Source: Octopus vulgaris (Eukaryota). Taken from it: a stretch of 64,000 nt of DNA. The position numbers and the translations under genes are program-made. Positions 38,488 through 64,000 of this stretch are shown here, piece by piece (position 1 is the stretch's first letter; the number at the start of each line of letters is the position of its first letter). The stretch is taken from positions 62,062,001-62,126,000 of the forward strand of contig OX597814.1 of assembly GCA_951406725.2 (NCBI GenBank). Reading direction: 5' to 3'. The notes under the pieces were generated by a model, which was not told the origin of the DNA, did not search any database, and was given only the letters and a program-made list of their open reading frames with translations.

Positions 38488-38615
38488 TTATTTAGTTTTC
38501 TTCCTTCTTCTTGGCATGTCTTTTTTCATCTTAGCATCAATTATACTTTGAGATATTTTCTTTATGGCACTTCTGCTCAAGACTTCTGGTTCATCCTCTC
38601 GGCTACTTTCGCTCT
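38488..38615 (-). CDS. ODAD3: ODAD3 exon 12 (stop)
   Basis: aag|(E)SESSREDEPEVLSRSAIKKISQSIIDAK..RRRKKTK*; minus-strand AATAAA at 38448-38453. Confidence 0.9.
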
Positions 38616-41600
38616 CTTTGGTAATTAATAGGAAAAGAAAAATAATAAAATAATATATAGAAGTTAGCATTTTATCCATCTCTTTTGCATAAGACTGTTT
38701 ACAATAATAAAAACAGCAATGTTCAGTTAAGAAATACAAATTGTTAAAGGGATCAAACTCACCAGCATAGATGTTTTCAAGTTGTGTGGAAAGCTTAACA
38801 CGTGTATTATATGCAGGAAGTCTGCTTTCAATATTGATATGGAACTGAAATTCAGACATAAATATTGCATATTAAAATTACTGCTATTTATTTAGATATA
38901 AGTGAAATATCTGGGGAATCGCTCACTTCAAAAAATTTTTATTTGTATATAATTCTGCATGGTTTATTATTTTTTATATAATTATAATACAAATCAAATG
39001 CAAGAATATTTTGTCATTATCTTTGTTGCCTTTTATACTCTAACTTTTGCTCATCTAACATTAATTTCAACTCTAACCTTCTTCTAAGCAGCAATTCTAT
39101 TACATTTGAAGTTGAGAATAATGATGATGGTGGAACAGAAGAAAGAATGCACAGCTATTTTTCTGTTAATCTTACAGGGGTGCTAGAATACCTTCCAGTT
39201 GTGGTCTCTCTGATTTACTCACTATTTTGAGTTTGAAAAGAAAAGGCTTTTCAGCTTTTTGTGATGATAGCTTTTAGCAGTTCATTATATATTTTGTAGG
39301 ACTATAATATTCTAAAGATCTTGTCAACTATGACTACTGCTAATTGGTACTGGGTAAAAATATCATCATCGTACAATCTTAGATGAGGTGTTTTTCAAGT
39401 TGTATATCTCTTGATAACTATAGACTCAATTGTAAGGATAGATGTTGATTACTGTAAATCTGAATTACAGCTTCTGTACAAGTAACAACAAACTATTACA
39501 ACTTGTTGCCTTATATACAATTTTTAAATAAATAATAAATATGCACAAATTTAAGGCAAGGTTTTTTTTTCCAATTTTCTATCAAAAAAGAAAAGTGTTA
39601 CTTTATTGCTTTAAAAAGATTTTCATTATAAAAATAGAGGCTGACATATATTTTGGTGTGTATGTATATATATATAAGAAAGCTTGTAACAAAGCAAAGA
39701 GTCTTACAAAACCCTGTATATTTCAGGCTCAAAGGCCTATATTCAGAAGGAAGCAGTCTAAGAAATGTGTAGTAAAGGAAACTTCCAACTGCACATTCAT
39801 TTCTTGGATTGCTTCCTTCTGAAGATAGGCCTTTGCATGTGAAATATACAGGATTTTGTAGAACTTTCTGCATTGTTAGCATTTTTATTCCCCTTTTCTT
39901 TTTATACTACTGTACTACAATGCTTCAAGCAAACTACAACACTCATATATATATATATTTGGCATTGACAACTTTTCTAATATTATAAACAAATGCATCT
40001 AACCCATCTACATGTCATATCTGGCTCGTTGTTCCTTTCTATCCATCACAGTTGTTAAAAACTGAAAGAACACCGAAATATTTTTTTTAAAATCTCACTA
40101 ACATAAAGATTAAAACCTGTGGAATAGTCTACATCAGTCCAAACCCATGTCATTATGGAAAAACAAACCAATAGGAGTTGTAATGGTTTATTAATTAAAT
40201 TCTAGCATACAAATTGTGTCTGTACCAAATATTTAGAATGAGATCATCTGAGTAACTGATCACTGAAGATTTTATCATCAATACTTTGACACAAGCAATG
40301 TGGCATTAGGTACTTATGTAGACTATCTGCTTATTTATCATTGCTGAAACCTTTCCCCACTTGTACAGTAATTCTGACATAAGTTGTTATCTTGTATCTG
40401 CTCCAACACTACAGTTTGGGTTAAATTATCTTCTATTTGGAACCTACCCAGTTCTTAAGTGCATGATAGAGTTATGTGATATGTTTTTAGATGCAAATCT
40501 CTGCAAATAAATCTCAACAATATGCACATTTCTCCATCATGACAAGCAGATGATATTGTTGCTCACATATACTTGTCAGTTTGCATACAGATTTATTTCT
40601 TACCTCCTCGTCTTCCATTTGTTTTTGAACTTTCTCCAAGTCCACATCATGAAAGTCATCCATGAGCTTCAGCAGTTTCTCTTCACATAAAGCTAATTGA
40701 TCAAGGACATACTCATTTGAAGAAGGGGAAAGCTTTGTTGATGCTGTGTACCCTTTTGGCTGTAGTAGTGAAAGGGAGAACAAACCAAATTACCAGATGA
40801 TATTTCACCCCTTTAACATTCTTAACATGTTTCAGTCTATTAATAATCTCAGTCATTGTATTAGATATATATACAAATAAAAATACACACACACACACAC
40901 GTCATGAACTAACTATTACTTTCTCAGATGCAGCACGGAATTTTCTCAGTGAACAGGTCGCAGTTTCAAAGCGACGAAAATATTTCAACAAATTAAATTT
41001 AAATGTTGAAGTGAATCTAATGGTTTTTGTGTGTTTTTTAAATGGCTTATAAACACCTTCCACGCTGCAATAAAATAAAATTATTAGACTTAAGAAAATA
41101 AGATTTTTATTGAAATTTGTTAAGGAGCTTTTCTATTACTGTTGAAGAGTTTTTATTATAAGTTGGTGTACTGTGTGATGCCAAGATCTAACATTTCAGA
41201 CACTTGTTACAAATATAAAGAAAGTAATGATTTAAAGTGAAAGAATGATAAGGAAGAGAAGTAGTGTGAGATGAACAAAGAGGAAGCAGAGCAAGAGGAC
41301 CAAAATTTATAAGCAAGATGAAAATCAAATGAAGTGGAACAAAGGTAATAAGTAAACTGGAAATCAAATCTCGTCATAATACATCACATGTGTGTATATA
41401 GATAGATAATGTATGTATAAATGTGTGTCTGTTTTCTTTAGTAATTGGGTGTAAATAACCTAAGTTATTTATATACTCAGAAGGGAAATAATTCCCTAAA
41501 CAAGCATAATTCATGGGAAGTAAAGCCCTTCAAGATGAGAGTGTTGATGTAACAGACTAAAAATCTCTTGAAGGCTGTGCCCCTGCATTGTTACAGTCCA

Positions 41601-43815
41601 ATATTATAGCTTTATCAACAAATGATAATAGAAAAATAGAAAATACTTCTATAAAGTGTTTTTGTACAGCACAAGCAGTGTCAGTCACTGCAGGTTTTGA
41701 GCATTTGTGCTGTTTATAAATCTATTTATCTATCATCTGTGTGTGTGTATGAAGACAATGAACATTAAAAGAGACAACACAGGAAGGGCAAAGGTTGACA
41801 AATATGGTATATATGTACACACACATGCATGCACACCTAAAACACAGGCAGAATAAAATTGAAACCTGAGAAATACAAAAATATAAAATGAAAGACATAC
41901 TGTTTTTAGATGAGAGAGTCTATCAGCAAGATGGTCAATACCAGATTTGACTTGCAATAAGATTTTAGACATTTTCTCCAGTTTATTTTCAATTTCAGCC
42001 CTACTAGTTTCTTCTTCCTGTAATTTCTCTTGGAATTCTTCAAGCATTCTTTGTCCTCTGAAGAGAAATAATGAACAATATTCATTATCATCATCATTTT
42101 TTAACATCCGTTGTCTATGCTGGCATGGGTTGCACAGTTTGACCAAAGCTGAGGAGCTGCACCAGACTCCAGTCTGATATAGCATAGCCTTTCCAAACGC
42201 CAACCACTCTAAAAGTGCAATGGGTGCTTTTACATGCCACCGGTACAGATGCCAGTCGTGTGACACTAGTATCTGCCACAACTACGATTTCACTTGGCTT
42301 GATGGGTCTTCTACTCAAGCATGGTAGGTCATGGAAGGTCTCAGTCATTTGTTATTGCCTCCACTCAAATATTGAAAGAAAGAAATATATATATTAAAAA
42401 AAAGCAAAAAAAAAAACAAGGGTGACAGACAGATGTGTAAATTGGCAATGCTGATTACTCAGAAACACCATCTACACAAAAAAATAATAATCAAGTTTCT
42501 GCTAAAATATTTAATGTGCTAAAAATTATTAATCTTATTAGAACTGCTGATGCACCGAGGAAAAGATAACATTTGCTCAGGTCAAGAAGACACATGTTTT
42601 TGAGTATGTGAGTAGTTCACTTCACGACCACATGGTTTCAGATTCAATCCCAACATATGCACACTCTATTACCTAATATACAAATGCCTATTTTTTTTCT
42701 TTTCTGACTCATAATGTGCACACATATATAAATGTGTGTGTGTGTGAAGAGAGAAAAAACACAAAGATTCAGAGTCAGTGAAAGAAAATGAAATAGAACA
42801 TCAGTTTATTCCTCTTACACTTTCCTTCTTGCTGATTCTTCAACTCATTCTTATAGTTACACCTCTTGTTTTTCCATATAATTCTACTTTTCTTTCTCAA
42901 CTCTTCACTATCCTCCCCACCACCACCACTATCATCATCATCCTCATCGTCACAATAATCATTTGTCATGACTCTTCAATTACACCCACGTCCTCTTCAG
43001 TCTCACAACATCTATTATTGAGGCAATCAAATGCTTATACTCCATATCCAGCATCCACAACCTGGTCATAAGATATTTCTCACACAATACAAATGAGCCA
43101 GGAAAAAATTTGTTTAGACAAATCTGTAGGTGAAAGTATGTTGATATGTGTTAGTGATATTGGAAACTTATATATCAATGTGTGTGTGGGGGTGTGGATG
43201 ATGATGATGATGATGAAAGGCAGCGAGCTGGCAGAAACATTAGCACGCAGGGGAAAATGCTTCGGGGTATTTCGTCTGCCGCTACGTTCTGAGTTCAAAT
43301 TCTGCCGGGGTTGACTTTGCCTTTTATCCTTATGGGGTCGATAAATTAAATACCAAAATTTTGGGAATGATGATGATGATGGTGGTGGTGGTGGTGGTGG
43401 TGGTATGATGATGATGGTAGTGGTGGTGGTTGTAACTAGCATCAGACTAATTCTTCATCATCATCATCATCAGCATCAACAACAACAGTATTTTAATGTC
43501 CACTTTCCGATGCTTGCATGGATCAGACTAAGTTTATTGAGGTAGATTTTCTACAGCAAAATGCCCTTCCTGTCACCAACCTTTACCCGTTTCCAAGAGT
43601 GACAATATTTCTCCATGGCCAGATATGTTCATTACAGAATATTGGAAATGAATGGCACTGCTTGTATGACAGTGACAATCATATTACAACTGTCATGCAA
43701 TGTCAAGACAAGGAAACAAACATAAATACACTCACAGCCCCACACATTGATATACATATATACATACATGCATCCATCCATCCATCCATGCATCCATTCA
43801 TACATACATGCATAC

Positions 43816-43860
<45 letters not shown>

Positions 43861-45615
43861 TATCATATAACTATTGAAAAGGTTGCAAGATGCAACGAAA
43901 ATTTGAGAAAAATAAAAAAGAAATAAGTGGAAATTTTACCAGTGTGTGTGTTAAAATTATAAGGCACTAAAAGAAAATAACTCTCCCTAGACACAACAGA
44001 ATATGTTTCAACAAACGCTCTCATATAAAGAATCTTGCAAACCAAATCCCAAAACGAAATATATTAATTAAGTTATAGAGTTATATATATTAAGTCATAG
44101 AGTGATGAATGGTTTCACATCCAAAAAGGTCATAGCTTCGCAGATGTCTGCAAAATGTGTATATAAATGTGTGTGTGTGTGTGTGGCTCAGTAATAGAGC
44201 ACTGGGCTCACAATCATGAGGTAGTGATTCCAATTCCCAGGCTGGGCTGTGTGTTGTGTTCTTGAACAAGATACTTTATTTCACACTGCTTCAGTTCACT
44301 CAGCTGTAGAAAAGACTCACGATGTCACTGGTGCCAAGCTGTATCAGCCTTTGCCTTTCCCTTGGATAACACTGGTGATGTGGAGAGGGAAGGCTGGTAT
44401 GCATGGGTGACTGCTCGTCTTCTATAAACAACCTTGCCTGGACTTGTGCCTCAGAGGGTAACTTTCTAGGTGCAATCCCATGATCATTCATGACCAAAGG
44501 GGATCTTTATATATATATATATATATATATATTACAGGATTCTTTCAGTTTCCATCTATCAAATCCACTCACAAAGCTTTGATCAGCCTGAAGCTATAGT
44601 AGAAGACACTTGCCCAAGGTGCTGTGCAGTGGGATTGAATCTAGAACCCAGAACTATGTGGTAGAGAAGCAAACTTCTTACCACATAGCCATTCCTGTGC
44701 CACAATTCTAATTGAAGAAATCTATGATTGAACACATTCCAGCCATGACCACCCTGGCTTCTGAGCTTTATGTAGGACTATTGCAGCCCAATGTACTCTT
44801 AGCTTCCCTTAGATGCTATGGGACATATTGAGGGTGATTTAGATGCTATTTCTAGCCTGCAAAGAAACTATAGAGAAGTTGCTTAATTAGCTCACATGTG
44901 TAGCTGTTATCATGGATATTGTTGTTTTTAGCTGTGGTTTGCCCTGATCAATGAATCTGGTTCTACATTACCCAATATGTTCTTTAAGTCAGAGTGAGAT
45001 TTTGATGAAGATTTGGCTGCTATTTCCAGCAAGTCAACTGTATAGAATAGAAGTGGGAAACTTTTTTTTCAACCGGGGTCAGCAGATTTTTCTTTCTACA
45101 ATAGGCACAAAGGCTGAAATTTTAGGGGAAAGGAGCTAGTCAATTACATCAACCCCAGTGCTCAAGTAGTACCTTATTTTTTATCAACCCCCAATAGGAT
45201 GAAAGGCCAAGTTGACTTCAGCAGTATTTGAACTCTGAACATAAAGCTAGAAGAAATGCTGCTAAGCATTTTGTCTGGCTTGCAAATGATGCTGCCAGTT
45301 AACTTCTTTCACCAGGGTTAGTCCATCATAAACACATTAAGAACTGAACTAATAGTAGTAGTAGTAGCAGTGAAGGTAGCAGCAGTAACTATACTAGTTA
45401 TATCTGTTGTCTAGCCCCAGGTCAATCCTAATTAAACAGACCTATGATAAGAACTGTTTGAACTTGACCATTCTGTCCTTTTGTCTTTTTCTCAGACATT
45501 GTGTATCTAAGACTACATTGTGCAAAATGTGTCTTTTCTTTTTTTTTGAAGGTGGTGGGATGAAATTCGAGGGAGATTTGACTGCTACATCTAGCACAAT
45601 GAGCAACCATTACAG

Positions 45616-45662
<47 letters not shown>

Positions 45663-47422
45663 CTGTCTGTCTGTCTAGCTAGCTAGCTAGCTTTTAATGT
45701 ATTCATTTTCACTGCTATCTGTTTGAAAAAATTAACATGTGTTTCTCTTTCAATATTTCCCACTCCTAGCAGCAACAACAATAGAATTATTACCTATTAT
45801 TAGCAGGAAGCACTGTACCGAATTCCATAACTCATTCAACTGGGTCATTAAGATATCATTGAAATGTCCAAGCAGTGCATCTAGAGCAAGTCAACTTAAC
45901 AGGGGTCCATCTTAGACACACTATTTTAGAAAAGAGTATTTAACAGTTATATCACTTGTTAAGGTTATCTCTACAGTTTTTCTGTAGAAATAATAGTCAG
46001 CACTGATTTTATTACAACATTTCATAACAGAGATGCCTGATGTAAACAACAATGATACCAAAGATGAAAAATGGGTAATGGGCATATACACCCAATATCT
46101 ATGTCCCATTTTTGATCTCATTATTGGTTACATTAGGCATACTTGGATATGAGTGCTGCTTCAGAAAATCTGAAGCTGTTGTTTTAATACTGTATAAAAG
46201 GAAACAAACATATAAGAAGAAAATTTATGTATAAACTTGATCAGTTCACATTTTAGCCACTGCCTAGTAGTGTGTTTAATTTGTTCACTGAACACTGCCA
46301 AAAATTCTCTCGTGTTTCTCAAAAATTCTCCCTAAATCACAAAATAAGGGTGGGAAATGTGGCCTATTTTTCAAATCCTGGCAGCAACACTGAAGCTGGA
46401 AACAGGATAATAATGGAATTCTACACTTTATCAAATTCAAGAATATAAACATGTTTTTAAGCACAACACATGCGGAGTCAAAAAGAAACACTACCTTTCA
46501 CCAGCACACCAGGGTAGGCACTGCATGAATGACAGTGCTTTCTCTCCCTAGCATGAAGCTTCCTATCTTGAGCATGTGAGTATGCGCACAACTGCCAAAC
46601 ACCGCATTAGTAGAACTGTGAAGCGCACAGTTCTATACAAGGATTTTTGTATTTTTTCCATAAACTAGGGGATGGCTACTGACATTGAGCTTAAGGATTA
46701 TATAATGTATAAGTATAAAGAAAGAATTAAAGAAAAAAAGGACTCATTATATTGAATGTTATTGACATTGAATGGAAATATGGGATGCTGCAGTTTCGCA
46801 GTGCCTATGTACAAGCCACCACTGCTTGGGTAGGACAATAACAACCTAAAACACAAATTACAATACAACACAAATTACCTTGACAATTTGGTTTCTCCTG
46901 TATATTTCATTTCTTCAAATGTCTTTTGAAGTTTTACCTTTTCCTCTCTCAGAAGAGAAATTTGTTTTTCATTTTCTTGCTTCAGCTCTTCTAAATGAGC
47001 TGTTGTTGCTCCTTGGTTTTCAAATCGACTTACAACTTCCTTGAAAGAGTCCAAAATATAATGATATGTAATTTAAAATGCCAATAGGAAAATCATGCTG
47101 TTATATATATATATATATATATTTCGTTTTTGGACTTGGTTTGCAAGATTCTTTATGTGAGTTCATGTGTTGAAGCATATTCTGTTGTGTCTGGGGAGAG
47201 TCATTTTCTTTTTGTGCCTTATAATTTAAAACAGTCACCGGTAAAATTTCCACTTATTTCTTATTTTTATTTTCCTAAAATCTTCGTTGAGTTTTGCAAC
47301 CTTTTCAAGAGTGAAAACTATTGAAAAGGTTGCAATACGCAATGAAAATTTTAGGAAAATAAAAATAAGAAATAAGTGGAAATTTTACTAGTGTGATACA
47401 TTATAAAGCAGAAAATACACCG

Positions 47423-47476
<54 letters not shown>

Positions 47477-48021
47477 TATACAGGGTGTGATGGGTGAATT
47501 GTCGTCATTTTATAGTTTTAATTTCACACATGCACATTGTTTGTGTTTGATTTTGTCGACTACACACACACACACACACATGTATATACATACATGTAAG
47601 CATGCCTGTGGGTATATAAGTATGAATGTTTGCATATATTTTGTAATGTATGTATGGTTGTGTCTGTGTGTGTGAATCCTTATGGGTATAGAGTGAGAAT
47701 ATTTTACCATCGTATCAGATACACCAGTAGCCTCCTTGATGCGTCTAAAAGCTTCTTCATATGTACTGATCTTTTGTTGTTGCTCTTCTCCAGATAAAAC
47801 TTGTTTTTCTCCTGATGCAGTTTCATCTTGTTGTTGGAAGGATGGACGTTGGGCCTAGATGTTAAGAAAAAAAGATAGAGTTATAACAATAGCTAATCTC
47901 TAAATCTAAGGTAGCAGCAGAATGTGACATAGTGATGGTATATAAGGTAATCATTGCAAATCAGATAATATTTCCTAACCCTCTATAATGATGATGACGA
48001 CAATGACAATGGTGGTGATGT

Positions 48022-48059
<38 letters not shown>

Positions 48060-49645
48060 TTATTTTACACAATGCTCAGGTGCATTACATCACATCAGAA
48101 AAAGTAACCAAAACTGCATGAACAGTACACAGAATATGCATGGGAAGTGAACAGTGAAAAAGTGAATAAATCTTTAAAAAAAAAATGTACACAAGTTAAA
48201 CTCTGAGTATGTCATTCAGACTGAGGAAGAAAAACAAATCATGAAAAATTAATATTTTAAAATTGAATTTCTATACTTTTTTTTAAAATGGTATAATATC
48301 AGATTTGGTTATTGTTCACTTCCATATCTTAACATACTTTTAGCAAATCACTTATTGATGACACTCATACTTAACCTTTTTGCATTTTAACTGGCTGCAT
48401 CCAGCCATAATATTCTACCTGCTTTATGTTCAAACTGGGCAGATTCAGCCTCTCACACTTACCCTACAATGTCATTCTAAAAGTAAACAATCACATCATT
48501 GAAATCTCAAAGCTATGAGATAATGCGTGATTAATTCAAAACCTTGCGTATAAATACATTTGACCGAATAATTTGAATGCTAAAGGGTTAAAGAGCTAAC
48601 TGCCACAGAGATTTTAATTCAGTAGCTAAGTCAGTCACTTAATACAGCTTCAATGATTCACAACTGCATCACCATGATCGTCGTCATCATCATCATCATC
48701 ATCATCACGGAACATCCTTTTCCCATGCAGGCATGGAACAGACAGTTTGACAGGATCTGGTAAACTGTAGGGCTGCACTGAGCTCCAGTGTCAGCTTTAT
48801 CATGGTTTCTATTGATTGGATGTCCTTCCTAATACCAATTACTTTACAGTATGTACTGAGTGCTTTTCTTATGCCGCCAGTCTTTACTAAAGTCACTAAG
48901 AAACTTGCAAATCAAGAAAAAAACATGAAAAGAAAAATTAAAAAGTCCCATTAAAGGAGAAGCACAGGTGTTTTGTTATAGAGAAAATACACAGCTACCC
49001 CATTTTATATAAGGGTGGGTGGGAATACAAGCATAATGATATTAAAAGAAGTTGCCTAGAATGCTATCAGTCAAGTTTAATGTAGTAAAGAATAAAGTAA
49101 TCAGGTCAATGATTAATGTTAATTTAATCTGGTCAGATTAATTTGATATTAGTCATTGAGTCTTTGTCTCCTTATTGCATAAGTATTATTAATTAATAAA
49201 AGTTTTTTTTTTTCTCTCTCAGTACTTTTAGTGATGGCCAAAACTTGACTGTTATTTTCTGTGTAAATGACATCTCTGGGTAATGCCCCTTAATCATAAT
49301 TGTCCTATTTGTTTAGTTGTTTTAAATATAACATATAAAGATAGTTTTCATTGATATCCTGCTACATCCAATGAGTTAGGGGACATTGAATATGAACAAT
49401 GTATATAAAATGTCATACCATTTTTTTTTATGTTAATAATAACAATAATAATAATAATCCTTTCTACTTTAGGCACAAGGATTGAAATGTTGTGGGTGGG
49501 GACTAGTTGATCACATCAACCCCAGTGTTTCACTGGTACTTAATTTATCGATCTCAAAAGTATAAAAGGCAAAGTCGGCCTTGGCAGAATTTGAAAGGGA
49601 ACATAAAAACAGACAAAATGCCACTAAGCATTTTGCCCGGCTACC

Positions 49646-49694
<49 letters not shown>

Positions 49695-50182
49695 TTAAGC
49701 AGTTGTGGTTGATGTAAAAGGTAGCAGTAGTACCAATAATTGTTGGAGCCCTGGGAACAGTGAACAAAAATCTCAAGAAGAACGTGGAACAAATAGGGGC
49801 TGCAATAAGGGTGGAGCACTTGCAGAAGACAGCACTGCTTGGAACTGCTCGAATACTCTGGAAGGTGCTCGAAAAATAAGAGGTGTTACCATAGTTCACT
49901 GGTAATGAACAGCTGACACTGTAGTACATCTCCAGCATTAGAAACTGTGCAAAGGCAATGATAATAATAATCCTTTCTATTATAAGTACAAGGCCTAAAA
50001 TTTGGGGGATGGGGACTAGTCAATTATATCGACCCTAGTGTTTCACTGGCACTCAATTTATCAATCTCAAAAGGATGAAAGCAAAGTCGACATCAGCAGA
50101 ATTTGAACACAGAACATAAAGACAGACAAAATGCCACCAAACATTTTGTCCAGCATGCTAAAGATTCTGCCTGCACACCACC

Positions 50183-50216
<34 letters not shown>

Positions 50217-50231
50217 TAATAATAATAATAT

Positions 50232-50278
<47 letters not shown>

Positions 50279-53200
50279 AACCTTTATTCAGGGACCTTTT
50301 GAGCGGGATAGGTTACTTGACCAGAAGAAAATTCTAACTGGGCCCCACCTGCGAGGTCATGTGCTGTTTATCTTGATATGAGATCACCATGTCACGCACA
50401 TATGGTTGTGATGTATTAGCCTAGTGTACCCTTATCAGATGGGTAGTCATGAAGGGTATACTGGGCTTCATATATTTTACCCCAGTGTCACTTTCATGGC
50501 ATGCACTTCTCTTTCACGCCATAATAATAATAATAATAATAATAATCTTATTGTATACAGTGCCAGGTACCCTACAGCTCATTCAGAATGAGTAAAAGAG
50601 AGGATAAGTTAAGTAAAGGAAGACAACAATGAAAACCAAAAGTACATGCATTTGTACACAAATAAAAGACAAAGGTGAACAGTAAGAGAGCCACAAAAAG
50701 AAAATGGTACCTAGGCATGTAGTGTTGGTGAATTTCAGATTTTTGAAGGATGAGGTGTCTCGATGGCTAACAATGGACATGGGTAGTTTCTCCCATGTTT
50801 TTACAATTCTGAGCATGGAAAAATGCTTCTCAAAGTCTTGAGTGCTGTTGGTGTTTTTTTTGTTTTTTTTATATATATATTTTATAAGTATATCCATGGA
50901 TAGTAGAGATAAGGCTCCATCTAAGTAGGTTTCAAACTGATACACACCAGACTCCCTCAGACGCACACACAAAATATCAGAGCAAAATTTGTTGGCACTC
51001 CACTTTATTAATGAGATTGCACCCATATAATTCTTAGACAAGTTTAATAAGTTGAAAACCATCTTATTTGATAAACTTCTTAATTTGTTTACCTCCTTTC
51101 CAATCTCCACTAGGAGAGAGAGACTTGCCTCCATCCTAGTTAGAAACACTGCTCTAACTGTAACACATGACAGGCGATGTTTTTTCATGGTATCTAAGGT
51201 GGCGAGCTGGCAGAAACATTAGCCTGCTGGACGAAATGCTTAGCGGTATTTCATCTTTACGTTCTGCGTTCAAATTCTGTCGTGGCTGATTTGCCTTTCA
51301 TTCTTTCGGGGTCAACAAATTAAGTACCCGTTGCGTACTGAGGTCGATTTAATCGACTGGCCCCACTTCCCCCAAAATTTCGGGCCTTGTGCCTAGAGTA
51401 GAAAACATTATTTTGTCTTTACGCTCAGAGTTCAAATTCCACCGAAGACGACTTTGCCTTTCGTTCTTTCGGGGTCGATAAATTAAGTACCAGTTGCGTA
51501 CTGAGATCGATCTAATCGACTGGCCCCACCTCCCCCAAAAAATTTCGGACCTTGTACCTAGAGTAGAACAGGATATAGTTCATAGTATCTAAGGGAGATA
51601 ACTCTTCAACTTTTTTTTTTTTACTGAAGAAGCATTTACTTAAATTGATTTCAACATGTCCTTTAAAAAATTAGTGAAAATAAATGAAAATTATTGCATT
51701 CAGTTTTTTTTCTGTATAATTTAAACATTTCCCAAGAGTTATGAAAAGGAAGAACAGATTAATGTCCAAATTCTTAAAAAGTTATTTCAAATTTCAGTAA
51801 CTGTAAAGAAAATTACTTGAAAGAATATATTTGAAACAACCATTGTTTTTGAGAGAACAAGTTCACTAGAAATAAAAGGTATTAAGCATTTTCTGTCATT
51901 TTTGTTACCATAGCAACAATTTAACTTCAACTCTATAAAACTAAATTTTAATCAACTTACATTAAATCGCCGCTCTATTCTATCATGAAGCATCCTCTTT
52001 TCTTCAGCTTCTTTCTTAAGTTCTTGCAGCTGTATTTCTCGTTTCTTCCTTTCATGAGAAATCATATCCTCATGTTTCTTCAGAACTTTCAAGGCATTTT
52101 CTTTAGAAAGTTGAGCATCTCTATACATAGATTGTAGTTCCTCTTGCTCATTCAAACTTTGTTTGATTTCCTTCTCAAGGTTTTCTAAAACTAAAGGCCA
52201 TTTTAGAGAGTCCTATAAATAAGAATATAGTTCAAAAAGATTACATACATACATAAGTACGTACATACATTCATACATACATACATACATACATACATAC
52301 ATACATACATACATACATACATACATACATCTATTAGTGGTACAGTGGAGATTTGTAAGACATTCCAAAAATTCTCCATCTGAGATTCTTATGTGAATAG
52401 ATGCATACACTTGAGTGTATACATCGACAGTTCAACCAACACACCCACTCAACCACATATTTACAAACACAGGGAACTCTCTTAACTCAAAATGTCTTGT
52501 GAACAAGTAACACTCAGCATGTAGTTGGAGAGTTGTAAGTATTTAATAACCAGAAAAATTACATATAAAATTTAGAATAATATACTTATTTCTTTTAGTT
52601 TTTGAAGAATTTTTTCATATGTTCTTGTAAGATGTGTGGCCTCATATATTTTCATCTGTGCTTTATCACAGCTATTTTCCAAGTATCTTATTCTCTGTTT
52701 TATAGAAAATAGATATATTAAAAATAGAAATCTTTTACTCTAAAACATACATATGAAATAAGTTTTTCAAACCAAATATGTTTATCCCAAAATACACTAC
52801 CTTCTATGAATTCATCAATTTTCTCAGACACTGTGATGCTTTTGATCAATCAGAACATCCAACCATTAGTCTGATAACAGTAGTTAAACAACAATAACTG
52901 TTGCTGCTGCTGCTCCTGATACTACAACTAAGCTATTATGTGGTTGTTTAGTCTTTTGGAAATGACAACCAAATATTCCTAAGATTACACTCTACCATCT
53001 TAAAAAAAGAAGGAAGGGTACATTGATATAATGTAGTCCTGTGTATATTATGCCTGAAAAAGACAAGATGGTTATAGTTGGAGTGCTTCCAATCATAGGT
53101 CTGAACAATCAGAAGAGGCAACCTGGAGTTAAACATCAATAACAACAGTAACAGCAACAGCAACAACAATAAAGCATCCCCTATATCTGTAACACTCAAA

Positions 53201-56200
53201 CTTTTTTTTTTTTATTTCATAGCAGAAAATTACCTTCATCAACATCATTATTTAAAGAGTATTTTCTATGTTGGCATGGGATGGACACTCAGGATAAAAT
53301 TGAGAATTTTTGGTACACTTTGCATATAAAGTTAAAAAAAAAAAGAGCTAAAAAAATTTTCAAATTTTGAAAAAGAAATATAGAAAAATATTGATTATCT
53401 TGTTTCGTTAAAGTGCATCAGATGTAGTGTGCAAGAGAGAAGACTGCACCGGCATGACCATGTGATGCATATAGACAAGGATAGTTGTATAAAGAAGTGT
53501 CAATCATTAACTGTGAAGGGAACCTATGGAAGAGGTAGATCCAGAAAGATGTGGGATGAGGTGGTGAAATATGATCTTCAGATGTTGAGTTTCATGTAGG
53601 TGATGACAGAGACCAAAACTTTTGGTGATTTGCTATGCTTGAGAAGATATGTCAAGCTAAGTGAAATCATGGTCATGGCCAGTGCTGGTGATGCATAAAA
53701 GGCACCTGCGCTGGTGACATGTAAAAGGCACCCAGTACACTCCGTGGAGTGGTTAGCATTAGGAAGGGCATCCAGCTGCACAAACCAAGCCAAAATAGAC
53801 TGGAGTAGCCCTACGGCTTACAAGTTCCAATTAAACCATCCAACTCATGTCAGTATGGAAAAGAGACGCTAAATAAGGACGATGACAATGACAACGACAA
53901 TGATGATGACGACAACAACAACAATGATGTGCACCAATGCGTATGACTAAATTATGAATTCCATGATTTTCAAAACATTCACCTATTAGTATTGATATTC
54001 TAATGCCTTAAACTATACTTTTAAATGTCTATGTCATATCTAGACATTCCACATGGAGTATCTAGTGCAATGTAGTGCACCATTTGAGGATCACAACCAT
54101 ATATCTATGCCAATGGTTCCTAAACATTATTCAACAGGGTGTGTAGCTCAGTGATCAGACAAATCCTTCAAGTGAAACCAACTTGCTGGAGACCAAGGGG
54201 AAACGAGCTGGCTGAAACATTAGCACACTGGGTGAAATGCTTAACGGTATTTCGTCTGCCGTTACGTTCTGAGTTCAAATTCCACTGAGGTTGACTTTGC
54301 CTTTCATCCTCTCGTGGCTGATAAATTAAGTACCAGTTATGCACTGGGGATCGATGTAATCGACTTAATCCCTTCGTCTGTCCTTGTTTGTCCCCTCTAT
54401 GTTTAGCCCCTTGTGGGCAATAAAGAAATAAGAAATAAGGGGAAACCAAAAATGAGATGGTTGGAAAATGGTGACACTTGAAAATCCAGATAGAAAATTT
54501 AATGACAGTTGCTTCTGAAAAGATCCTGCAGTGGAGATTTTTAAGGACTCTACCCTGATAACCATCCCAGGAATAGAGGCTACATTTTACAAGCCTTAAT
54601 TTTTATAAAACGTTAAATGGAACAAACTTGTTTCACAGAATTTATTTCGGAGGAAAAAATGGTTTTAGTCACATTGTGTAGAACAAGTGTCTTCTACCAT
54701 AGACCAGGATCAACTAATACCATACGTGTGGGAACAAAGTTTGTTTTGTGGGTGAAAACCAAGGTCTTCAAATGGTGAAGAGCACTGAACATTCTCTCAC
54801 TTGATGCAACTGATATCCTCCCAAAATTTCATTGGGTGTGCTTGTACTCCTGACACATTCTGTTCCAAAGCCAATGACCAGCGTTTTGTGAGTGAATTTT
54901 GTAGACACAAACTGTGAATATGTGGTAAGAAGCTTGCTTCTCAATCACTTGATCCTGGGTCCAGTCCCACTGCATGGTACCTTGGGCAAGTGTCATCTAC
55001 TGTAGCCTTGGGCTGACCAAAGCCTTGAGAGTTGATTTAGTAGATGGAAACTGAAAGAAGCCTGTCATGTGCATGTATGTGTGTGTGTGTTTGTTCCCCA
55101 ACCTTGCTTCAAAACCGATGTTGGAGTGTTTATGTTTCTGTAACTTAGTGGTTCAGCAAAAGAGACCAACAGAATAAGTCCTAGGTGAAAGAAATGAAAG
55201 AAAGAAATGAAAATGTGATAATATTTTGTTAAACCTGAGCTTCTGTAGATTCCTTTTTATCTGTTGTTATTGCTAAAAAAGATGCTTGCTGTTGTTCATT
55301 GTATGTTATCTGCATATTCCTCAGTTGCTTTTCTTTCACAGCAACCTGATGTTTTAGAGCATTGAGAAGTCGCATACCATCAGAGACTTTATGATCCAAA
55401 ATAGTTATGGCTTCCTGAATGAAATTTAAAAAAAAAACAATTTTAAATATTACACATTTGTTTTTTCAAGCCAAAACAACATAAGTTAAAGGGAAATAAA
55501 TACAAGTTGATAGTTTCTACTTCTATCTTGTATTTCAATATTTTAGGGAATGAACTTTTTCAGGATATCTTTGGAGAAATGGTGTTGGGGCCAACTTCTC
55601 TGTTCTATAGTGTGTGCATATACAGGGTTGCTTTCCATGCACAAAATGGTGTTACTGTTTTTTTTTTATGATGAAGATGATGAGGAAGAGGGGGAGGAGG
55701 AGGATTAGCAATGAATGAAATATTTTTTATTTAATATTTTAGATGTGCTTTTTGTTTTTCTTCTGGTTGTTTTTGTGTATTTTAATTTACACTATCACTT
55801 GTGTATCGCATTTTACATCATCATTATCATCATCATCATATTTATCCTAAACACAACCCTCATTAACATGATTAAAAAATCCTTTTATTTATATTACTTA
55901 TGAGGGAATCAGTGCAACAATGGTTGCTGATATTTCTGTGACATTATCATCCTACTTTCCTATTCTTAAAGTGTGTGACACCCTTGCTGACATTTTTTGC
56001 TAATTACATTACTTAAATTTAAAACCTCCTGATACCTTTAACTACTGTCTATAACATCTTGATTGGAAAACAATGCTCTACATAGTCATTTGTCCTGATA
56101 GAAATAGCAGCCAATTCATCCTCAAATTACATTGTACTAACATACAAAAGGTTACATTGGATAATGTTGCCTTTGGTGTCCCGTTTCTGGGGAAAAGATA

Positions 56201-57790
56201 GGATAATTAAGGTTAGACTACCTTTGATCTGCTAGATCAAAGCTGACCTTGACTAAGAAGAAAATAATAACAAATACAACAACATGATTAAATAACTTCT
56301 TTGAAAATCAATATTTACCTGCCCAGTTTTGTTTTTTAGAGACGCTCGTTCAGTTGGTTTGTCCTTTAAGGCCTTGTTAATCACAGCTTCATCTTTCTGT
56401 AAAGAAGAGAATAGTCAAGCATTTGAGAGATAGAATAACTGTAATGGGTTTAGCTACAACAGCTACTAAGAGATATAAGAAGCTAAAGTGAGTTTAGCAA
56501 TGACATTTATTGAAGGATACAATAGTTGTAGTGACATTAGTTAAAGTACTTATCAAGGTATATAATACCTGTAGTGAGTTTGGTTATAATATTTATTAAA
56601 AAGGTGGTGAGCTGACAGAATTGCTAGCACATCAGGCAGGATTTCATTTGCCTTTATGTTCTGAGTTCAAATGCCACCAAGGCTGACTTTGCCTTTTATC
56701 CTTTCAGGGTTGATAAAATAAATACTTGTTGAGCAGGGTTGATGGCCTTCTGCCAAAATTTGAAGCTGATATTTACTAGGAGATAAAACAGCTGTTATAA
56801 GTTAAACTATAGCCTTAACCCTTTAACATTTAAATTACTCTATCAAATGTAATGCTTGTTTGTTCACAATGTTTTGAATTTATCATGCATAATCTCATAG
56901 CTTTGAAATCTTGATGAGGTAACTATTTATTTTTAGAATGACATTGTAAGGTTGGTGTGAGAGGCTTGATATGGTCAGTTTGGACATAAAACAAGTAAAA
57001 TATTTTGGCCAGATACGGCCGGTTTAAACGCTAAGAGGTTACTTGAGGAGATATAAGAACTGCAGTGAGCTTTGTTACATTTCTTGAGATATACAATAAC
57101 TGTAGTATTGCATTTCTTCTAGATCTTTACATTCTCAGTTCAAATCCTGCTGAGGTCACCTTTGCCTTTCATCCCTTTGAGTTTGATAAAATAAAGTATC
57201 AGTCAAGTACTTGGGTTGATGTAATCAATATGTCTCCACTCCTCAATCCTGAAACAGACTGGCATCCCAATCACAAGAATTGTCAAGTGGTAGTGGGAGA
57301 CGAACACAAACTCAAACACACACACACACGATACAATAGGCTTCTTTCAGTCTCCCTCTATCAAATCTACTCAAGACTTTGGTCCAGCTAATGCTATGGG
57401 AGAAGACACCTGCCCACGGTGCCATGCAGTGAGACTGTACCCAGAACCATGCTATTGGAAGCAAGCTTAAGGCCTTGTGCTGCACTATCTTAAATATAAG
57501 TGAGTTCCTTGATAACTTGAATGTAAGTTCTTAGAGAATTTTGAATAGGAAAATATCGCTCAGTAATTGAACTACTTACCATATGTAAATCATGAAGTTT
57601 TTGACGAAGTTCTTTGTTTTCTTTTCTCAATGTCTTTATTTTCTCTTTGTTCCTCTTTATTGTGAACTGAGATATTTCATTGTAAGCTTTTCTATCACCA
57701 TCTTACCATGCAATGAAATAATAGTCAATATCAGACTCTTTCAATTTTTGAAATGCAAAGAGCAAAAAAGCACACACGAACACACACACG

Positions 57791-57829
<39 letters not shown>

Positions 57830-59877
57830 AAAGTTATATTCTTTTTTTCTTTTACTTGTTTCACTCATTTGACTATTGCCATGCTGGAGCACTGCCCTGA
57901 AGGGTTTTAGTCAAACAAATCAACCCCCAGAACTTTTTTTTAAAGTCTAGTATTTATTCTATTGTTTTTTTTTTGCCAAACCACTAAATTATGGGGACAT
58001 AAGCTCACCAATACTGGTTGTCAAGCCCTGATGGGGGACAAACACAGACACAACCACACACACACACATGTACAACATGCTTCATTCAGTTTCCATCTAC
58101 CAAATCCACTCATATAGCCTTGGTTGGCCCAAGGCTATAGAAAAAGTGACTTGCCCAAAGTGCCATGCTGTGGGACTGAAGCTGGAACCATATGGTTGGG
58201 AAGCAAGCTTCTTATCACACAGCCACACCTGTGCCTCATCATCATCATCGTCATCATGATTTAACATCCGCTTTCCATGGTGGGTTGGACGGTTTGACTG
58301 AGAACTGGCAGGCCAGAAGACTGTACTAGGCTCCAATCTGATTTGGCAAGGTTTCTACAGCTGAATATCCTTCCTAATGCCAACCACACTAAATGTGTAG
58401 TGGATGCTTTTTATGTGCCATTAGCACAAAAGCCAGTCATTTGCACTGGCATTGGCTACACTCGGATGGTGCATTTTACATGCCACCAGCACAGATGCCA
58501 GTCAGGTAGCACTGGCATCAGCCGCAACTATGATTTCACTCAGCTCAACAGATCTCCACAAACATGGCATATTGGCCAACGATTGAAGGGTGCTTTTAAA
58601 TGGGTTATTTATGCAACACTGGCATCAGCCACAACTATGATCTCACTTGGCTTGCTAGGTCTTCTCAAGCATGACATATCTCCAAAGGTCTCGGTCACTA
58701 GTCATTGTCTTGGTGAGGACCAACGTTTGAAGATTGTGCATTACCACCTAATCTCATGCCTTCCTGGGTCTACCTCTTCCACAGGGTCCCTCCATTGTTA
58801 GGGTGTGGCACTTCTTCACATAGCTGTCCTCATCCATGCACGTCATATGACCATATCAGTGCAGTCGTCTCTCTTGCACACTACATCTGATGCTTCTTGT
58901 GTCCAACTTTTTTCTCAGGGTGCTTACACTCTGTCGTGTAAGTACACTGACATTACACATCGTCCTCAGCAGTCACAGCCCATTTTTCAATGCTGTGTAG
59001 CATGGCTATTCACACACAGGCATCATACAGTCTACCTTCCACTCTGAGTGAAAGGTACTTTGTTACCAGCAGAGGTAGGAGCTCTCTGAACTTTGCCCAG
59101 CTTATTCTTATTGTAGCAGCTATGCTCTCAGAGCATCCACCCCCACTACTGACTTGGTCACCTAGGTAACGGAAGCTATGAACTACTTCTAGATTTTTCC
59201 CCTGGCATGTGATGGAATCTGTTTTCTGTAAATTTTTGGTGTTTATTGCACCTGTGCATCTTCCACACACAAAAACTATCTTCCCAGTTAACCTTCCTTT
59301 GATATTGCTGCACCTCTTATGTGTCCAAAGCTTACACCGGGCACATCTTATGGATTTTCAACCTACCCCTTTTCTACAGATCGAGTATGGCCATCTACCT
59401 AATGGACTTGTGATTTGTCTGGCTTCCTACTTAGTAAGACTTTGGTTTTTGCTAGATTAACTTCGATTCTAAACCTTGCTTCCACACCTGAAACTTCTTC
59501 TCTAGTTCTGGTAGTGACTCAGATATTAGAGCAAGGTCATCAGCATACAGGAGCACCCAGAGGTAGCCTCTCTTGAATTCCTGTTATTGCCTGGAGGACT
59601 ATGATGAACAAGAGGATGATGAGGGTTGATTATACCCCTATATATATATATATATATGCTTTTCTTATATTGTTGAGAAATATATTACTGGTTATGACAT
59701 ATAACTAGTGAAAATGTTTGCACCAGCTATTGCTATGAGCAAGTTTGAATGAAACTGTTGGTAACATTCTCACCAGTTATTGCTTGACAATATAAGAATA
59801 TAACCATTCTGATTCTCTTTTTGAATGAGGTATTTTTCTTACTAATTGATAATTTATGTACGTATGTATGTATATGC

Positions 59878-59934
<57 letters not shown>

Positions 59935-61183
59935 AAGAGAGAGCGAGAGAAAGAGAGGAAGGTGGGAGAGGAGGATCAAAGCTAGAGAAGCCCAGCTATT
60001 TTGTCAGCTGAGTCTTGTCCAGTTTTAATCCTCACTTGATATTTCGAATTAAACATCTGCCGCTCAGCTCATACATTTCCAGTTGCCATTAATCTTTGTA
60101 CACTCTGCTTGTTTCTCTGACAATTGACAACATACTTTACCATAAATAATCTGTCCTTTACACATGAAAAAAAAATTCTGTTTCTAATAGAAGCATTTCT
60201 TCTTGACACTCAACTCTTACCATAATATTTTGTATAAGCTGTTTCAATTTATGTTGTTTCAAGTGAATTCATAAAATATTTTAAACTGGCACGAATTTTG
60301 TTCAAGCATATGACAGCTGGGTACATGTTATTGACAAGTGTCATGGAGGATGAAACATGCCTAATGTTCCCTTGAATTATTGTTGTGACAAAGATCATCT
60401 CACTTTGATATATCTTTCCTTTATCTTTTATTTGTTTCAGTCATATGACTGCAGCCACGCTGGTGCACCACCTAGAAAGGTTTCAGTTGAACAAATTGAG
60501 CCTGGTACTTATTCTGTTGATATCTTTTGCCAAACTGCTAAGTTACAAGGATGTAAACACGCCAACACTGGTTGTCAAGCTGTAGTGGAGGACAAATACA
60601 GACACACACACATAGATATATATGTGTGTATATATATATATATATGATGGGCTTCTTTCAGTTTCCATTCACTAAATCCACTCACAAGGCTTTGGTCATC
60701 CCGAGGCTATAGTAGAAGACACTTACCCAAGGTATCACGAAGTGGGACTGACCCCAGAACCATGTGGTTGGGAAGCAAGCATCTTACCACACAGTCACAC
60801 CTATATATATATATATATATATAAACATCTATATATAAGCATAAGCTTACACACACACACATACATACATACATTCATACATGTATGTATGTATGTATGT
60901 ATGTATGTATGCACTCGGCAGTAGTGACAGTGACTCAAGGCCCAAGTCTTTCGTGCATAGAACGTATCAAACACGCACATACGCACATACATTCACACGC
61001 GCGCACGTATTTGTGTGTGTGTGTGTGCGTATAGTAGAGCGAGCGCATAACATTTTATCTATTCAGATCCACTAAAGAAAGTAGATAGCATGAAATCTTA
61101 CCAAGAAGGCATTTCTTTGCTTTCATCTCTTCTATCTTTTCAGATACAGGCCTGTCCACGGAGATTTCCCTTAGATCAGGCAT
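38488..61183 (-). CDS. ODAD3: Outer dynein arm-docking complex subunit 3 (CCDC151); complement(join(38488..38615,38763..38844,40604..40759,41901..42057,46879..47039,47708..47854,51961..52212,52590..52694,55235..55414,56319..56396,57580..57701,61102..61183)), 549 aa
   Basis: Long coiled coil with LLDGDRKAY, LKNKTGQ, LENSCDKAQMK, ERKKRE..AEEK, IKEATG, MKYTGE, EEKLLKL, RLPAYNTR, matching recalled human CCDC151 blocks in order; 1650 nt; all phases consistent; one non-GT donor (intron 5). Confidence 0.93.
38763..38844 (-). CDS. ODAD3: ODAD3 exon 11
   Basis: cag|FHINIESRLPAYNTRVKLSTQLENIYA|gtgag. Confidence 0.92.
39697..39867. mobile_element. Fold-back element with two inverted hammerhead-like motifs
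   Basis: About 80-bp inverted arms; consensus CCUU-CUGAAGA-U-AGGC..GCCU-GAAA-UAUA-CAGG at 39713-39750 (-) and 39815-39852 (+). Confidence 0.7.
40604..40759 (-). CDS. ODAD3: ODAD3 exon 10
   Basis: cag|PKGYT..YVLDQLALCEEKLLKL..MEDEE|gtaag. Confidence 0.92.
40929..41069 (+). mobile_element. Small element with terminal stem and G3-C8 hammerhead-like core
   Basis: TGCAGC..GGAA / TTCC..GCTGCA ends; GUGAACA-G-GUCGC(9 nt)GCGAC-GAAA-AUAUUU at 40949-40985. Confidence 0.55.
41901..42057 (-). CDS. ODAD3: ODAD3 exon 9
   Basis: cag|GQRMLEEFQEKL..SGIDHLADRLSHLKT|gtatgt. Confidence 0.92.
43870..44062 (+). mobile_element. About 190-bp repeat starting with a U3-A8 hammerhead-like motif
   Basis: CUA-UUGAAAA-G-GUUGCA(AGA)UGCAAC-GAAA-AUUU; same family as 47120-47396; next to (TA)n. 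Confidence 0.65.
46879..47039 (-). CDS. ODAD3: ODAD3 exon 8
   Basis: aag|EVVSRFENQG..FEEMKYTGETKLS|gtaat. Confidence 0.92.
47120..47396. mobile_element. Fold-back copy of the U3-A8 family in a (TA)n tract
   Basis: Inverted arms around about 47314; motifs at about 47273-47310 (-) and 47318-47354 (+). Confidence 0.7.
47708..47854 (-). CDS. ODAD3: ODAD3 exon 7
   Basis: tag|AQRPSFQ..YEEAFRRIKEATGVSDTM|gtaaa. Confidence 0.92.
49700..49960 (+). mobile_element. R4/Dong-clade 3' fragment embedded in (AAT)n
   Basis: [46 protein letters not shown]; AAT repeats on both sides. Confidence 0.8.
50560..50985 (-). mobile_element. CR1-type LINE 3' fragment
   Basis: HFSMLRIVKTWEKLPMSIVS..SSFK resembles the FFSxRVVxxWNxLP..SFK end of CR1 ORF2. 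Confidence 0.6.
51200..51578 (+). mobile_element. Young tandem-dimer tRNA-derived SINE inside one TSD
   Basis: TTCAT(G/A)GTATCTAAGG at 51184-51199 and 51579-51594; CpGs retained. Confidence 0.82.
51904..51917. promoter_or_regulatory. RFX X-box in ODAD3 intron 6
   Basis: GTTACCATAGCAAC, a full match to GTTNCCATRGNAAC. Confidence 0.5.
51961..52212 (-). CDS. ODAD3: ODAD3 exon 6
   Basis: tag|DSLKWPLVLENLEKEI..ERKKRE..RIERRFN|gtaagt. Confidence 0.88.
52243..52330. repeat. (TACA)n microsatellite in ODAD3 intron 5
   Basis: Tandem ATAC units. Confidence 0.95.
52590..52694 (-). CDS. ODAD3: ODAD3 exon 5 (3' boundary non-canonical)
   Basis: cag|RIRYLENSCDKAQMKIYEATHLTRTYEKILQKLKE|ataagt. Confidence 0.8.
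53410..53880 (+). mobile_element. RTE LINE 3' end
   Basis: Reverse complement of 58240-58900; ends in GAT/GAC repeats. Confidence 0.75.
54205..54436 (+). mobile_element. tRNA-derived SINE with TSD
   Basis: AAGGGGAAAC at 54195-54204 and 54437-54446; B-box GAGTTCAAATTCC. Confidence 0.85.
54918..55190 (+). mobile_element. Second tRNA-derived SINE family (TGTGGTAAGAAGCTTGCTTC head, internal (GT)n)
   Basis: Related copies at about 16185, 24270-24560, 44535-44700, 57330-57470, 57850-58230 and 60420-60800. Confidence 0.8.
55235..55414 (-). CDS. ODAD3: ODAD3 exon 4
   Basis: cag|EAITILDHK..NALKHQV..ESTEAQ|gttta. Confidence 0.9.
56319..56396 (-). CDS. ODAD3: ODAD3 exon 3
   Basis: cag|KDEAVINKALKDKPTERASLKNKTGQ|gtaaa. 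Confidence 0.9.
57580..57701 (-). CDS. ODAD3: ODAD3 exon 2
   Basis: (D)GDRKAYNEISQFTIKRNKEKIKTLRKENKELRQKLHDLHM|gtaag. Confidence 0.9.
58236..59632 (-). mobile_element. 5'-truncated RTE LINE with 3' UTR and (GAT)n tail
   Basis: [37 protein letters not shown]; short 3'-end copies also at about 1570, 4330, 13500, 30005, 31240, 42085, 43490 and 48700. Confidence 0.88.
59880..59955. repeat. (GA)n microsatellite
   Basis: Long GA run; other simple repeats at 31377 (GT), 37881 (AT), 45618 (CT), 47425 (TA), 48023 (GAT), 49647 and 50185 (AAT), 63762 (TACA). Confidence 0.95.
61102..61183 (-). CDS. ODAD3: ODAD3 coding exon 1
   Basis: caaaaATG PDLREISVDRPVSEKIEEMKAKKCLL|gtaag; in-frame TGA upstream. 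Confidence 0.85.
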
Positions 61184-63725: not shown

Positions 63726-64000
63726 TGGTACAGTATACTGCTTACCAGGGCTTACCACTTATGTACATACATACATACATACATACATACATACATACAT
63801 ACATACATACATACATACATACATACATACATGTATATACGTGTGTGATCTACTTATATAGAATTTTGGTTTCTCTAATTCGTTTTTCTTTTCTTTTTTA
63901 TTGGCGATAGAATCATTAAACTTTTTGTTGTCACTGTGCACAAAAGCCATATCTTGTGCAAAGTATGTGCACACCGAATACTTGCTTATGTTAAATGTAA

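What the first reader, a model, noticed from the sequence alone, without database searches (positions are those of the whole stretch)
52213..52589. ODAD3 intron 5 starts with ATAAGT instead of GTAAGT
Seen: exon 5 ends ...CTA AAA GAA|ATAAGTATA and read-through hits TAA after 5 codons. Exon 6 starts tttatag|GAC TCT CTA in phase 0. Joining there gives KLKE-DSL, gap-free against recalled human YLMD-ESL. Possible explanations (inference): (a) an AT-AG intron whose +1 A is edited to inosine, creating a GU-like donor, which is attractive because coleoids have extensive ADAR editing; (b) a U2-type AT-AC intron using the AC 3 nt downstream (ataggac|TCT, in frame, loses one Asp; ATAAGT is the known U2 AT-AC donor, not the U12 ATATCCT); (c) GT at +5 joined to a downstream AG (cctttag|TT or ttttag|AA), in frame but losing DSLKWPL; (d) a splice-mutant allele or an assembly error.
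Basis: partly seen in the sequence, partly recalled or inferred. Interest (0 to 1): 0.7.

Follow-up and report, generated by a model that had tools for sequence, protein, structure and literature searches.

The report
Spliced AT-AG intron in octopus ODAD3
An intron in an octopus cilia gene starts with AT instead of the near-universal GT, yet it is cut out exactly in assembled RNA, so it is a real rare intron that two database gene models skip; whether RNA editing repairs the A before splicing is still open.

Summary
Intron 5 of ODAD3/CCDC151 (52589-52213, minus strand, 377 nt) reads AT...AG; the other 10 of 11 introns are GT-AG. In 2 of 3 RNA runs laid (two coded species labels), one contig joins exon 5 to exon 6 exactly at these ends with no mismatch; the third forks at the donor. 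A DNA run of the second species also has A at +1. AT-AC use, the +5 GT donor and assembly error are therefore not supported as the main form. The O. vulgaris and O. sinensis protein models skip this conserved exon. The donor is U2-type (7 of 7 U1 match at +2..+8), not U12. The mechanism is unresolved. Direct, less efficient use of an AU donor (0.5) fits an unspliced contig that keeps A and the lack of a convincing ADAR duplex. A-to-I repair (0.38) fits coleoid editing and the published second-step block by the same AUAAGU donor in Aspergillus telomerase RNA. Outgroup donors were not seen. It is a new member of a known rare class. The scan earlier noted a spliced AT-AG intron in a fungal genome (unchecked).

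The parts
38488..61183 (-). ODAD3/CCDC151 coding region, 12 exons, 549 aa with exon 5
   Evidence: tblastn map; exon edges and open frame; Pfam ODAD1_CC on the matching model; NCBI names
55235..55414 (-). exon 4
   Evidence: joined to exon 5 in X11 record 8 and X1 record 3
52590..52694 (-). exon 5, 105 nt, 35 aa, phase 0/0; skipped in the O. vulgaris and O. sinensis models
   Evidence: included in RNA contigs
52213..52589 (-). intron 5, 377 nt, AT...AG
   Evidence: removed exactly in X11 and X18; 52340-52619 seen unspliced in X1
52582..52589 (-). non-canonical donor ATAAGTAT: A at +1, 7 of 7 U1 match at +2..+8
   Evidence: A also in DNA run X5 and in the unspliced contig of X1
52213..52241 (-). 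pyrimidine-rich 3' end and TAG acceptor; no good U12 branch motif (best 5 of 8)
51961..52212 (-). exon 6; an in-frame AC at its positions 2-3 is not used in the contigs seen
52545..52602 (-). weak predicted hairpin over the donor; +1 A lies opposite A52559
   Evidence: -6.4 kcal/mol, z -0.95, 34 of 200 shuffles as good; not significant
52242..52330 (-). (AUGU)n microsatellite in intron 5; can self-fold through G.U pairs; role unknown

Best explanation
Intron 5 is a major-spliceosome (U2-type) intron whose first base changed from G to A, probably in the lineage of the common octopus and its close relatives. It is still removed exactly at AT...AG (shown). U1 and U6 most likely pick the site through the otherwise perfect intronic match at +2..+8, and the spliceosome accepts the unedited A at a lower rate (inferred). 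Some transcripts therefore keep the intron, which brings a stop 5 codons in, and some may skip the in-frame exon, while enough full-length ODAD3 mRNA is made.
For: Shown: exact junction in 2 of 3 RNA runs, fork at the donor in the third, and A in DNA of a second species label; junction not shiftable; exon-5 residues present in 20 of 22 aligned proteins, the two exceptions being the skip models. For a U2 reading: +2..+8 matches U1 at 7 of 7, against 1-6 of 7 for the other 10 donors; U12 +3..+8 matches 2 of 6. For an unedited A: the unspliced contig in X1 (52340-52619, depth 5.7) has 0 other letters, and the exon-6 contig starts after exactly 30 unplaced letters, so no G-then-intron branch survived in that graph (inference from 31-letter words). 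No duplex beyond chance: 33 of 60 shuffles as good within 3 kb; a 9-bp helix over +1 is matched by 81 of 1000 shuffles and 19 of 173 nearby A sites, and a difference in organism B breaks one of its pairs. For slower splicing (weak hint): X1 holds intron 5 while unique bins of intron 4 and the start of intron 6 have no depth. Human AT-AG sites without editing evidence are reported (PMC4176328), and high coleoid editing is described as seen only in neural tissue (PMC6881472).
Against: G1A blocks the second step in yeast and human introns. The same AUAAGU donor from Aspergillus telomerase RNA gives almost no spliced product until it is changed to G (PMC4299874), yet X11 shows an unbroken 1823-nt spliced contig at depth 19.5 with no retained form. 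Unspliced RNA would be enriched for unedited A under the editing model too, so the A in X1 does not decide, and depth 5.7 is low. The AG is used rather than the AC 3 nt on, which an A-start might favour (weak, since that AC has G at -3; recalled rule). The 52720-52335 region folds somewhat better than shuffles (z -2.8). The GT ancestral state is inferred only from outgroup gene models.
Confidence: 0.5

Rival explanations
1. ADAR edits the +1 A to inosine co-transcriptionally. The edited molecules splice as GU-AG, the unedited ones stall. The genomic G-to-A change was tolerated because editing restores it.
For: The published second-step block by an AU donor against the efficient exact splicing seen in X11 and X18. 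Edited AT-AG donors exist in human: C14orf37 (U2-like), NUP210 and CRYZL1 (U12-like). The harm-permitting model for G-to-A changes in coleoids. Retained-intron RNA carrying A is also predicted by this model. A weak hairpin spans the donor, and a self-folding microsatellite lies 260 nt downstream.
Against: No edited unspliced contig was seen in the 3 RNA runs, and no other letters were listed in exon 5 or in the 250 intron bases covered in X1. +1 A sits in an A.A mismatch of a hairpin no better than chance; its pairing probability ranged from 0.06 to 0.76 across seven folds. [quoted passage not shown]
Confidence: 0.38
2. The spliced mRNA comes from an unseen G allele or second gene copy; the A allele itself only skips exon 5 or retains the intron.
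For: Contigs collapse heterozygous sites, and RNA and DNA runs are not from the same individuals. The O. vulgaris and O. sinensis models skip exon 5. In X18 the exon-4 contig stops exactly at the exon-4 donor, and two exon-6 bins have unexplained extra depth.
Against: A is present in the window, in X1 and in DNA run X5 under another species label. The X5 contig depth (48.3) equals that of its neighbours (43-55), which suggests one copy. The two exon-4 differences in X18 RNA are the same as in X5 DNA.
Confidence: 0.06
3. It is a U12-type (minor spliceosome) AT-AG intron, the commonest known source of AT-AG ends.
For: In a five-species catalogue the AT-AG passages seen were all U12-type (20 introns; PMC1557818).
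Against: The donor has 2 of 6 matches to the U12 core, and the best branch match is 5 of 8, no better than at the gene's GT-AG introns (4-7 of 8).
Confidence: 0.02
4. The main product uses the AC 3 nt downstream (U2 AT-AC) or the GT at +5.
For: Both are in frame.
Against: The assembled junctions in X11 and X18 keep the Asp codon and add no intron bases; five cephalopod orthologues all read KLKE|DSL.
Confidence: 0.02

Closest known systems
U2-like AT-AG introns in human (Parada et al. 2014, PMC4176328; e.g. C14orf37, edited)
   Same: AT...AG ends with a U2-like consensus; prone to mis-annotation by aligners
   Different: This one is in a mollusc, and the exon looks like part of the main form of a conserved protein; editing is not shown here
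Aspergillus telomerase RNA AUAAGU 5' splice site (Kannan et al. 2015, PMC4299874)
   Same: Identical donor hexamer read by the spliceosome
   Different: There the A blocks step 2 and the cleaved RNA is the product; here exon ligation to AG is completed
U12-type AT-AG introns (ACTR10, NUP210, XPO4; Sheth et al. 2006, PMC1557818)
   Same: Same terminal dinucleotides; ACTR10 is a recent lineage-limited GT-to-AT change, as inferred here
   Different: No U12 donor or branch signal here
U2-type AT-AC introns (15 in human in PMC1557818)
   Same: U2 donor with A at +1
   Different: The acceptor used is AG; the adjacent in-frame AC is not used in the contigs seen
Restorative, harm-permitting A-to-I editing in coleoids (Jiang and Zhang 2019, PMC6881472)
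   Same: Would be a G-to-A substitution rescued by editing, if the rival explanation holds
   Different: The passages seen concern codons in neural transcripts, not splice donors

Membership tests
U2-type AT-AG intron | Genomic AT at the 5' end and AG at the 3' end | tested here: met
   A also in DNA run X5
U2-type AT-AG intron | Removed exactly at these ends in RNA, junction not shiftable to canonical ends | tested here: met
   X11 record 8, X18 record 14; shift test
U2-type AT-AG intron | U2-type donor consensus apart from +1, and pyrimidine tract plus YAG | tested here: met
   7 of 7 at +2..+8; TTCTTATTTATAG end
U2-type AT-AG intron | Dependence on U1/U2/U6 snRNPs | not testable with these tools
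   needs snRNA blocking
U12-type intron | Donor RTATCCTT | tested here: not met
   2 of 6 at +3..+8 (motif recalled)
U12-type intron | Branch site TCCTTRAC near the 3' end | tested here: not met
   best 5 of 8, within the range of the gene's GT-AG introns (motif recalled)
U2-type AT-AC intron | AC acceptor used | tested here: not met
   contigs use AG; rare use cannot be excluded
Editing-created splice donor (AU to IU) | A>G at +1 in unspliced RNA | tested here: inconclusive
   one unspliced contig, depth 5.7, shows A; contigs drop rare variants and edited molecules would splice away
Editing-created splice donor (AU to IU) | Double-stranded structure around the edited A | tested here: inconclusive
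   no duplex above chance over +1; wider region z -2.8 to -3.9
Editing-created splice donor (AU to IU) | ADAR dependence of the junction | not testable with these tools
   needs knock-down or minigene
ODAD3/CCDC151 | Full-length similarity to named orthologues and the ODAD1_CC domain | tested here: met

The most novel reading that the evidence does not exclude
The main splice donor of a conserved exon of a motile-cilia gene works only after A-to-I editing. A G-to-A substitution at intron +1, normally crippling, was fixed in common octopuses because ADAR restores it, which would make full-length ODAD3 depend on editing and perhaps on tissue or temperature. It would be an obligatory case of restorative editing at a splice site, in a group where a published survey found almost none.
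Probability: 0.35. Interest if true: 0.8.

Novelty: new member of a known kind. Interest (0 to 1): 0.5.

Why it matters
Either outcome is useful. If editing is needed, this is a clean all-or-none test of the harm-permitting model of coleoid editing, at a site where the unedited state should cost the protein a conserved segment. If it is not needed, it is a natural animal intron that completes splicing with the AUAAGU donor that blocks step 2 in a fungal RNA, a handle on what relaxes the first-base/last-base check. Practically, two public Octopus protein models lack a 35-residue exon that RNA contigs include, and a published octopus survey reported no such junctions in same-genome mappings, so a search that permits AT-AG and GT-AA may find more.

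Tried and rejected
No whole genome is held for this window, so no genome-wide count of AT donors and no U1 variant search could be made. Outgroup donors: two metagenome scans gave 0 loci and 2 loci that are intron-free transcripts. A search for short genomic read-through ORFs of exon 5, whose next residue would reveal GT or AT, found no candidate. An O. sinensis isoform X1 did not appear. Rfam on 51900-55500: 0 matches. Structure: the best duplex for the donor within 6 kb was the weakest of 11 donors and no better than shuffles; the 9-bp helix with 52755-52763 was rejected; the z of -3.86 comes partly from the microsatellite. Reverse-transcriptase template switching was rejected because the junction has no microhomology and orthologues share it. 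The joint and loose-end tables were cut (212 and 1157 rows hidden), so the absence of an exon 4-6 joint there proves nothing. Literature searches showed no paper describing this intron; the library lacks most subscription papers.

Full report
Observation. Mapping homologues on the window gives 12 coding exons from 61183 to 38488. Ten of the 11 introns are GT-AG and only intron 5 is AT-AG; the full join is an open frame of 549 aa (the intron-8 acceptor printed one base off is corrected there). Retention of the intron gives five codons and a stop.

Gene and database models. The window's exons without exon 5 equal the Octopus vulgaris model CAI9715222.1 letter for letter, and differ at one residue from O. 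sinensis XP_036357591.1 isoform X2. Both models jump from exon 4 to exon 6. Models or transcripts of O. bimaculoides, Argonauta hians, Sepia pharaonis and two unnamed Logan proteins contain the exon and read KLKE|DSL, with 34, 34, 26, 27 and 27 of 35 residues identical. In an alignment of 22 proteins (6 cephalopod sequences plus 16 picked from the best of 891 hits), 20 have residues in all 35 exon-5 columns; the two exceptions are the skip models. The exon's columns are more conserved than the protein average (0.59 versus 0.50) and hold five nearly invariant positions.

RNA and DNA evidence. The run search listed 24 runs, 20 holding part of 51961-52700. I laid 4 of the 24, all assembled contigs, with RNA or DNA status guessed by the tool. 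In X11 (organism A), one 1823-nt contig at depth 19.5 runs 55417-55235, then 52694-52590, then 52212-51960, on consecutive record positions with no other letters or gaps. In X18 (organism B, another study), a 350-nt contig joins 52590 to 52212 in the same way. In X1 (organism A, a third study), the exon 4-5 contig ends exactly at 52590, an unspliced contig covers 52340-52619 at depth 5.7 with no other letters, and the exon-6 contig begins with 30 unplaced letters. That pattern is what a fork at the donor would give, but the join itself is not displayed. DNA run X5 (organism B) covers 52471-53170 at depth 48.3 with 10 differences, the nearest at intron +13 and none at +1 or in exon 5. Of 13 shifts of the junction only the AT-AG reading reproduces the mRNA. 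So the A is genomic under two species labels and the intron is spliced at AT...AG.

Limits of that evidence. Contigs drop rare forms, RNA and DNA are from different animals, and the joint and loose-end tables were cut. In X18 two exon-6 bins have more depth (8.18 and 7.28) than the listed contig explains (about 1.9 and 1.6), and its exon-4 contig stops at the exon-4 donor, so a skip form there is not excluded. In X1, unique bins of intron 4 and the start of intron 6 have no depth while intron 5 has, a weak hint of selective retention; X11 and X18 show no retained contig.

Which spliceosome. The donor matches the U1 complement at 7 of 7 positions from +2 to +8, more than any of the gene's other 10 donors (1-6 of 7). 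Over -3..+8 it scores 8 of 11, within their range of 5-10. It has 2 of 6 matches to the U12 core and no better U12 branch motif than the other introns (motifs recalled). It is a U2-type intron by sequence.

Mechanism. Shown: genomic A, exact ligation, and uncleaved unspliced RNA with A in one run. Inferred: U1/U6 recognition through the strong intronic match; a recent G-to-A change (only from outgroup models that include the exon; their DNA was not seen). Open: whether the A is edited before splicing. Against editing: no edited unspliced contig; +1 lies opposite an A in a hairpin no better than shuffles (34 of 200); the best duplex within 3 kb is matched by 33 of 60 shuffled queries; a 9-bp helix to intron 4 is matched by 81 of 1000 shuffles and by 19 of 173 nearby A sites, and organism B's change at 52762 breaks one of its pairs. 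For editing: G1A is reported to block step 2, and the identical AUAAGU donor of Aspergillus telomerase RNA yields almost no spliced product until changed to G, whereas splicing here looks efficient in X11; unspliced RNA would carry A under either model; the region has some excess structure (z -2.8 without and -3.9 with the microsatellite). I put direct use at 0.5, editing at 0.38, a hidden G allele or copy at 0.06, U12 splicing and the AC or +5 GT options at 0.02 each, and the small rest unassigned.

Comparison with what is known. Parada et al. 2014 (PMC4176328; passages) list human AT-AG sites with editing (C14orf37, NUP210, CRYZL1) and others without, and note mis-annotation by aligners; their Table 1 was not held as text. 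Sheth et al. 2006 (PMC1557818; passages) count 20 U12-type AT-AG and 24 U2-type AT-AC introns in five species. Kannan et al. 2015 (PMC4299874; passages and sections 6-7). Zolotarov et al. 2022 (PMC9699675; passages, supplementary text passages and part 1 of 3 of the table file) looked for editing-made splice sites. They report 0 non-canonical junctions in four species mapped to their own genomes, and 1066 'AtoG?' junctions for O. vulgaris reads mapped on the O. sinensis reference. No gene list was in what I saw, and their annotation data file, which I did not see, may contain this junction. Jiang and Zhang 2019 (PMC6881472; passages) give the harm-permitting model; its author correction was seen only as a search listing. 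PMC1934990 (passages) gave only reference titles on inosine and terminal-base pairing; I did not read those papers. No paper on this intron appeared in searches. The scan holds one unchecked note on a spliced AT-AG micro-intron in a fungal gene and none on this gene.

Verdict. A real, spliced U2-type AT-AG intron: a new member of a known rare class, interest 0.5. The bold reading, obligatory restorative editing of a main splice donor, is not excluded (0.35) and would deserve 0.8. Lariat sequencing or raw nascent reads with matched DNA would decide it.

Noticed in passing
window 52590-52694: The O. vulgaris (CAI9715222.1, CAI9715223.1) and O. sinensis (XP_036357591.1) ODAD3 models lack exon 5, which RNA contigs include; probably an annotation effect of the AT donor or a minor skip isoform.
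   Followed up: yes
window 46879-47039: Both O. bimaculoides models (XP_014787950.1, XP_052824547.1) replace the exon-8 peptide with unrelated residues, which suggests an assembly gap or mis-annotation there.
   Followed up: no
window 55227-55234: The intron-4 donor GTTTAACA is weak (5 of 11 U1 matches, tied lowest overall; 1 of 7 at +2..+8), so intron 4 also starts poorly; X18's exon-4 contig stops exactly there.
   Followed up: partly
window 52242-52330: (ATGT)n microsatellite in intron 5, one of two such perfect arrays of 8 or more units in the window; as RNA it folds at -31 kcal/mol through G.U pairs.
   Followed up: partly
window 26598-27513: Broken transposase-like frames on the minus strand; one matches Pfam DDE_3 (E 3.6e-13).
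   Followed up: partly
window 59010-59583 and 62871-63758: Fragments that look like non-LTR retrotransposon reverse transcriptase C-terminal regions (resemblance recalled, not searched).
   Followed up: no
window 53715-55166: High-copy repeats in intron 4, with summed contig depth up to 2e7 in the DNA run and 3e5 in RNA runs; probably SINEs (recalled).
   Followed up: no
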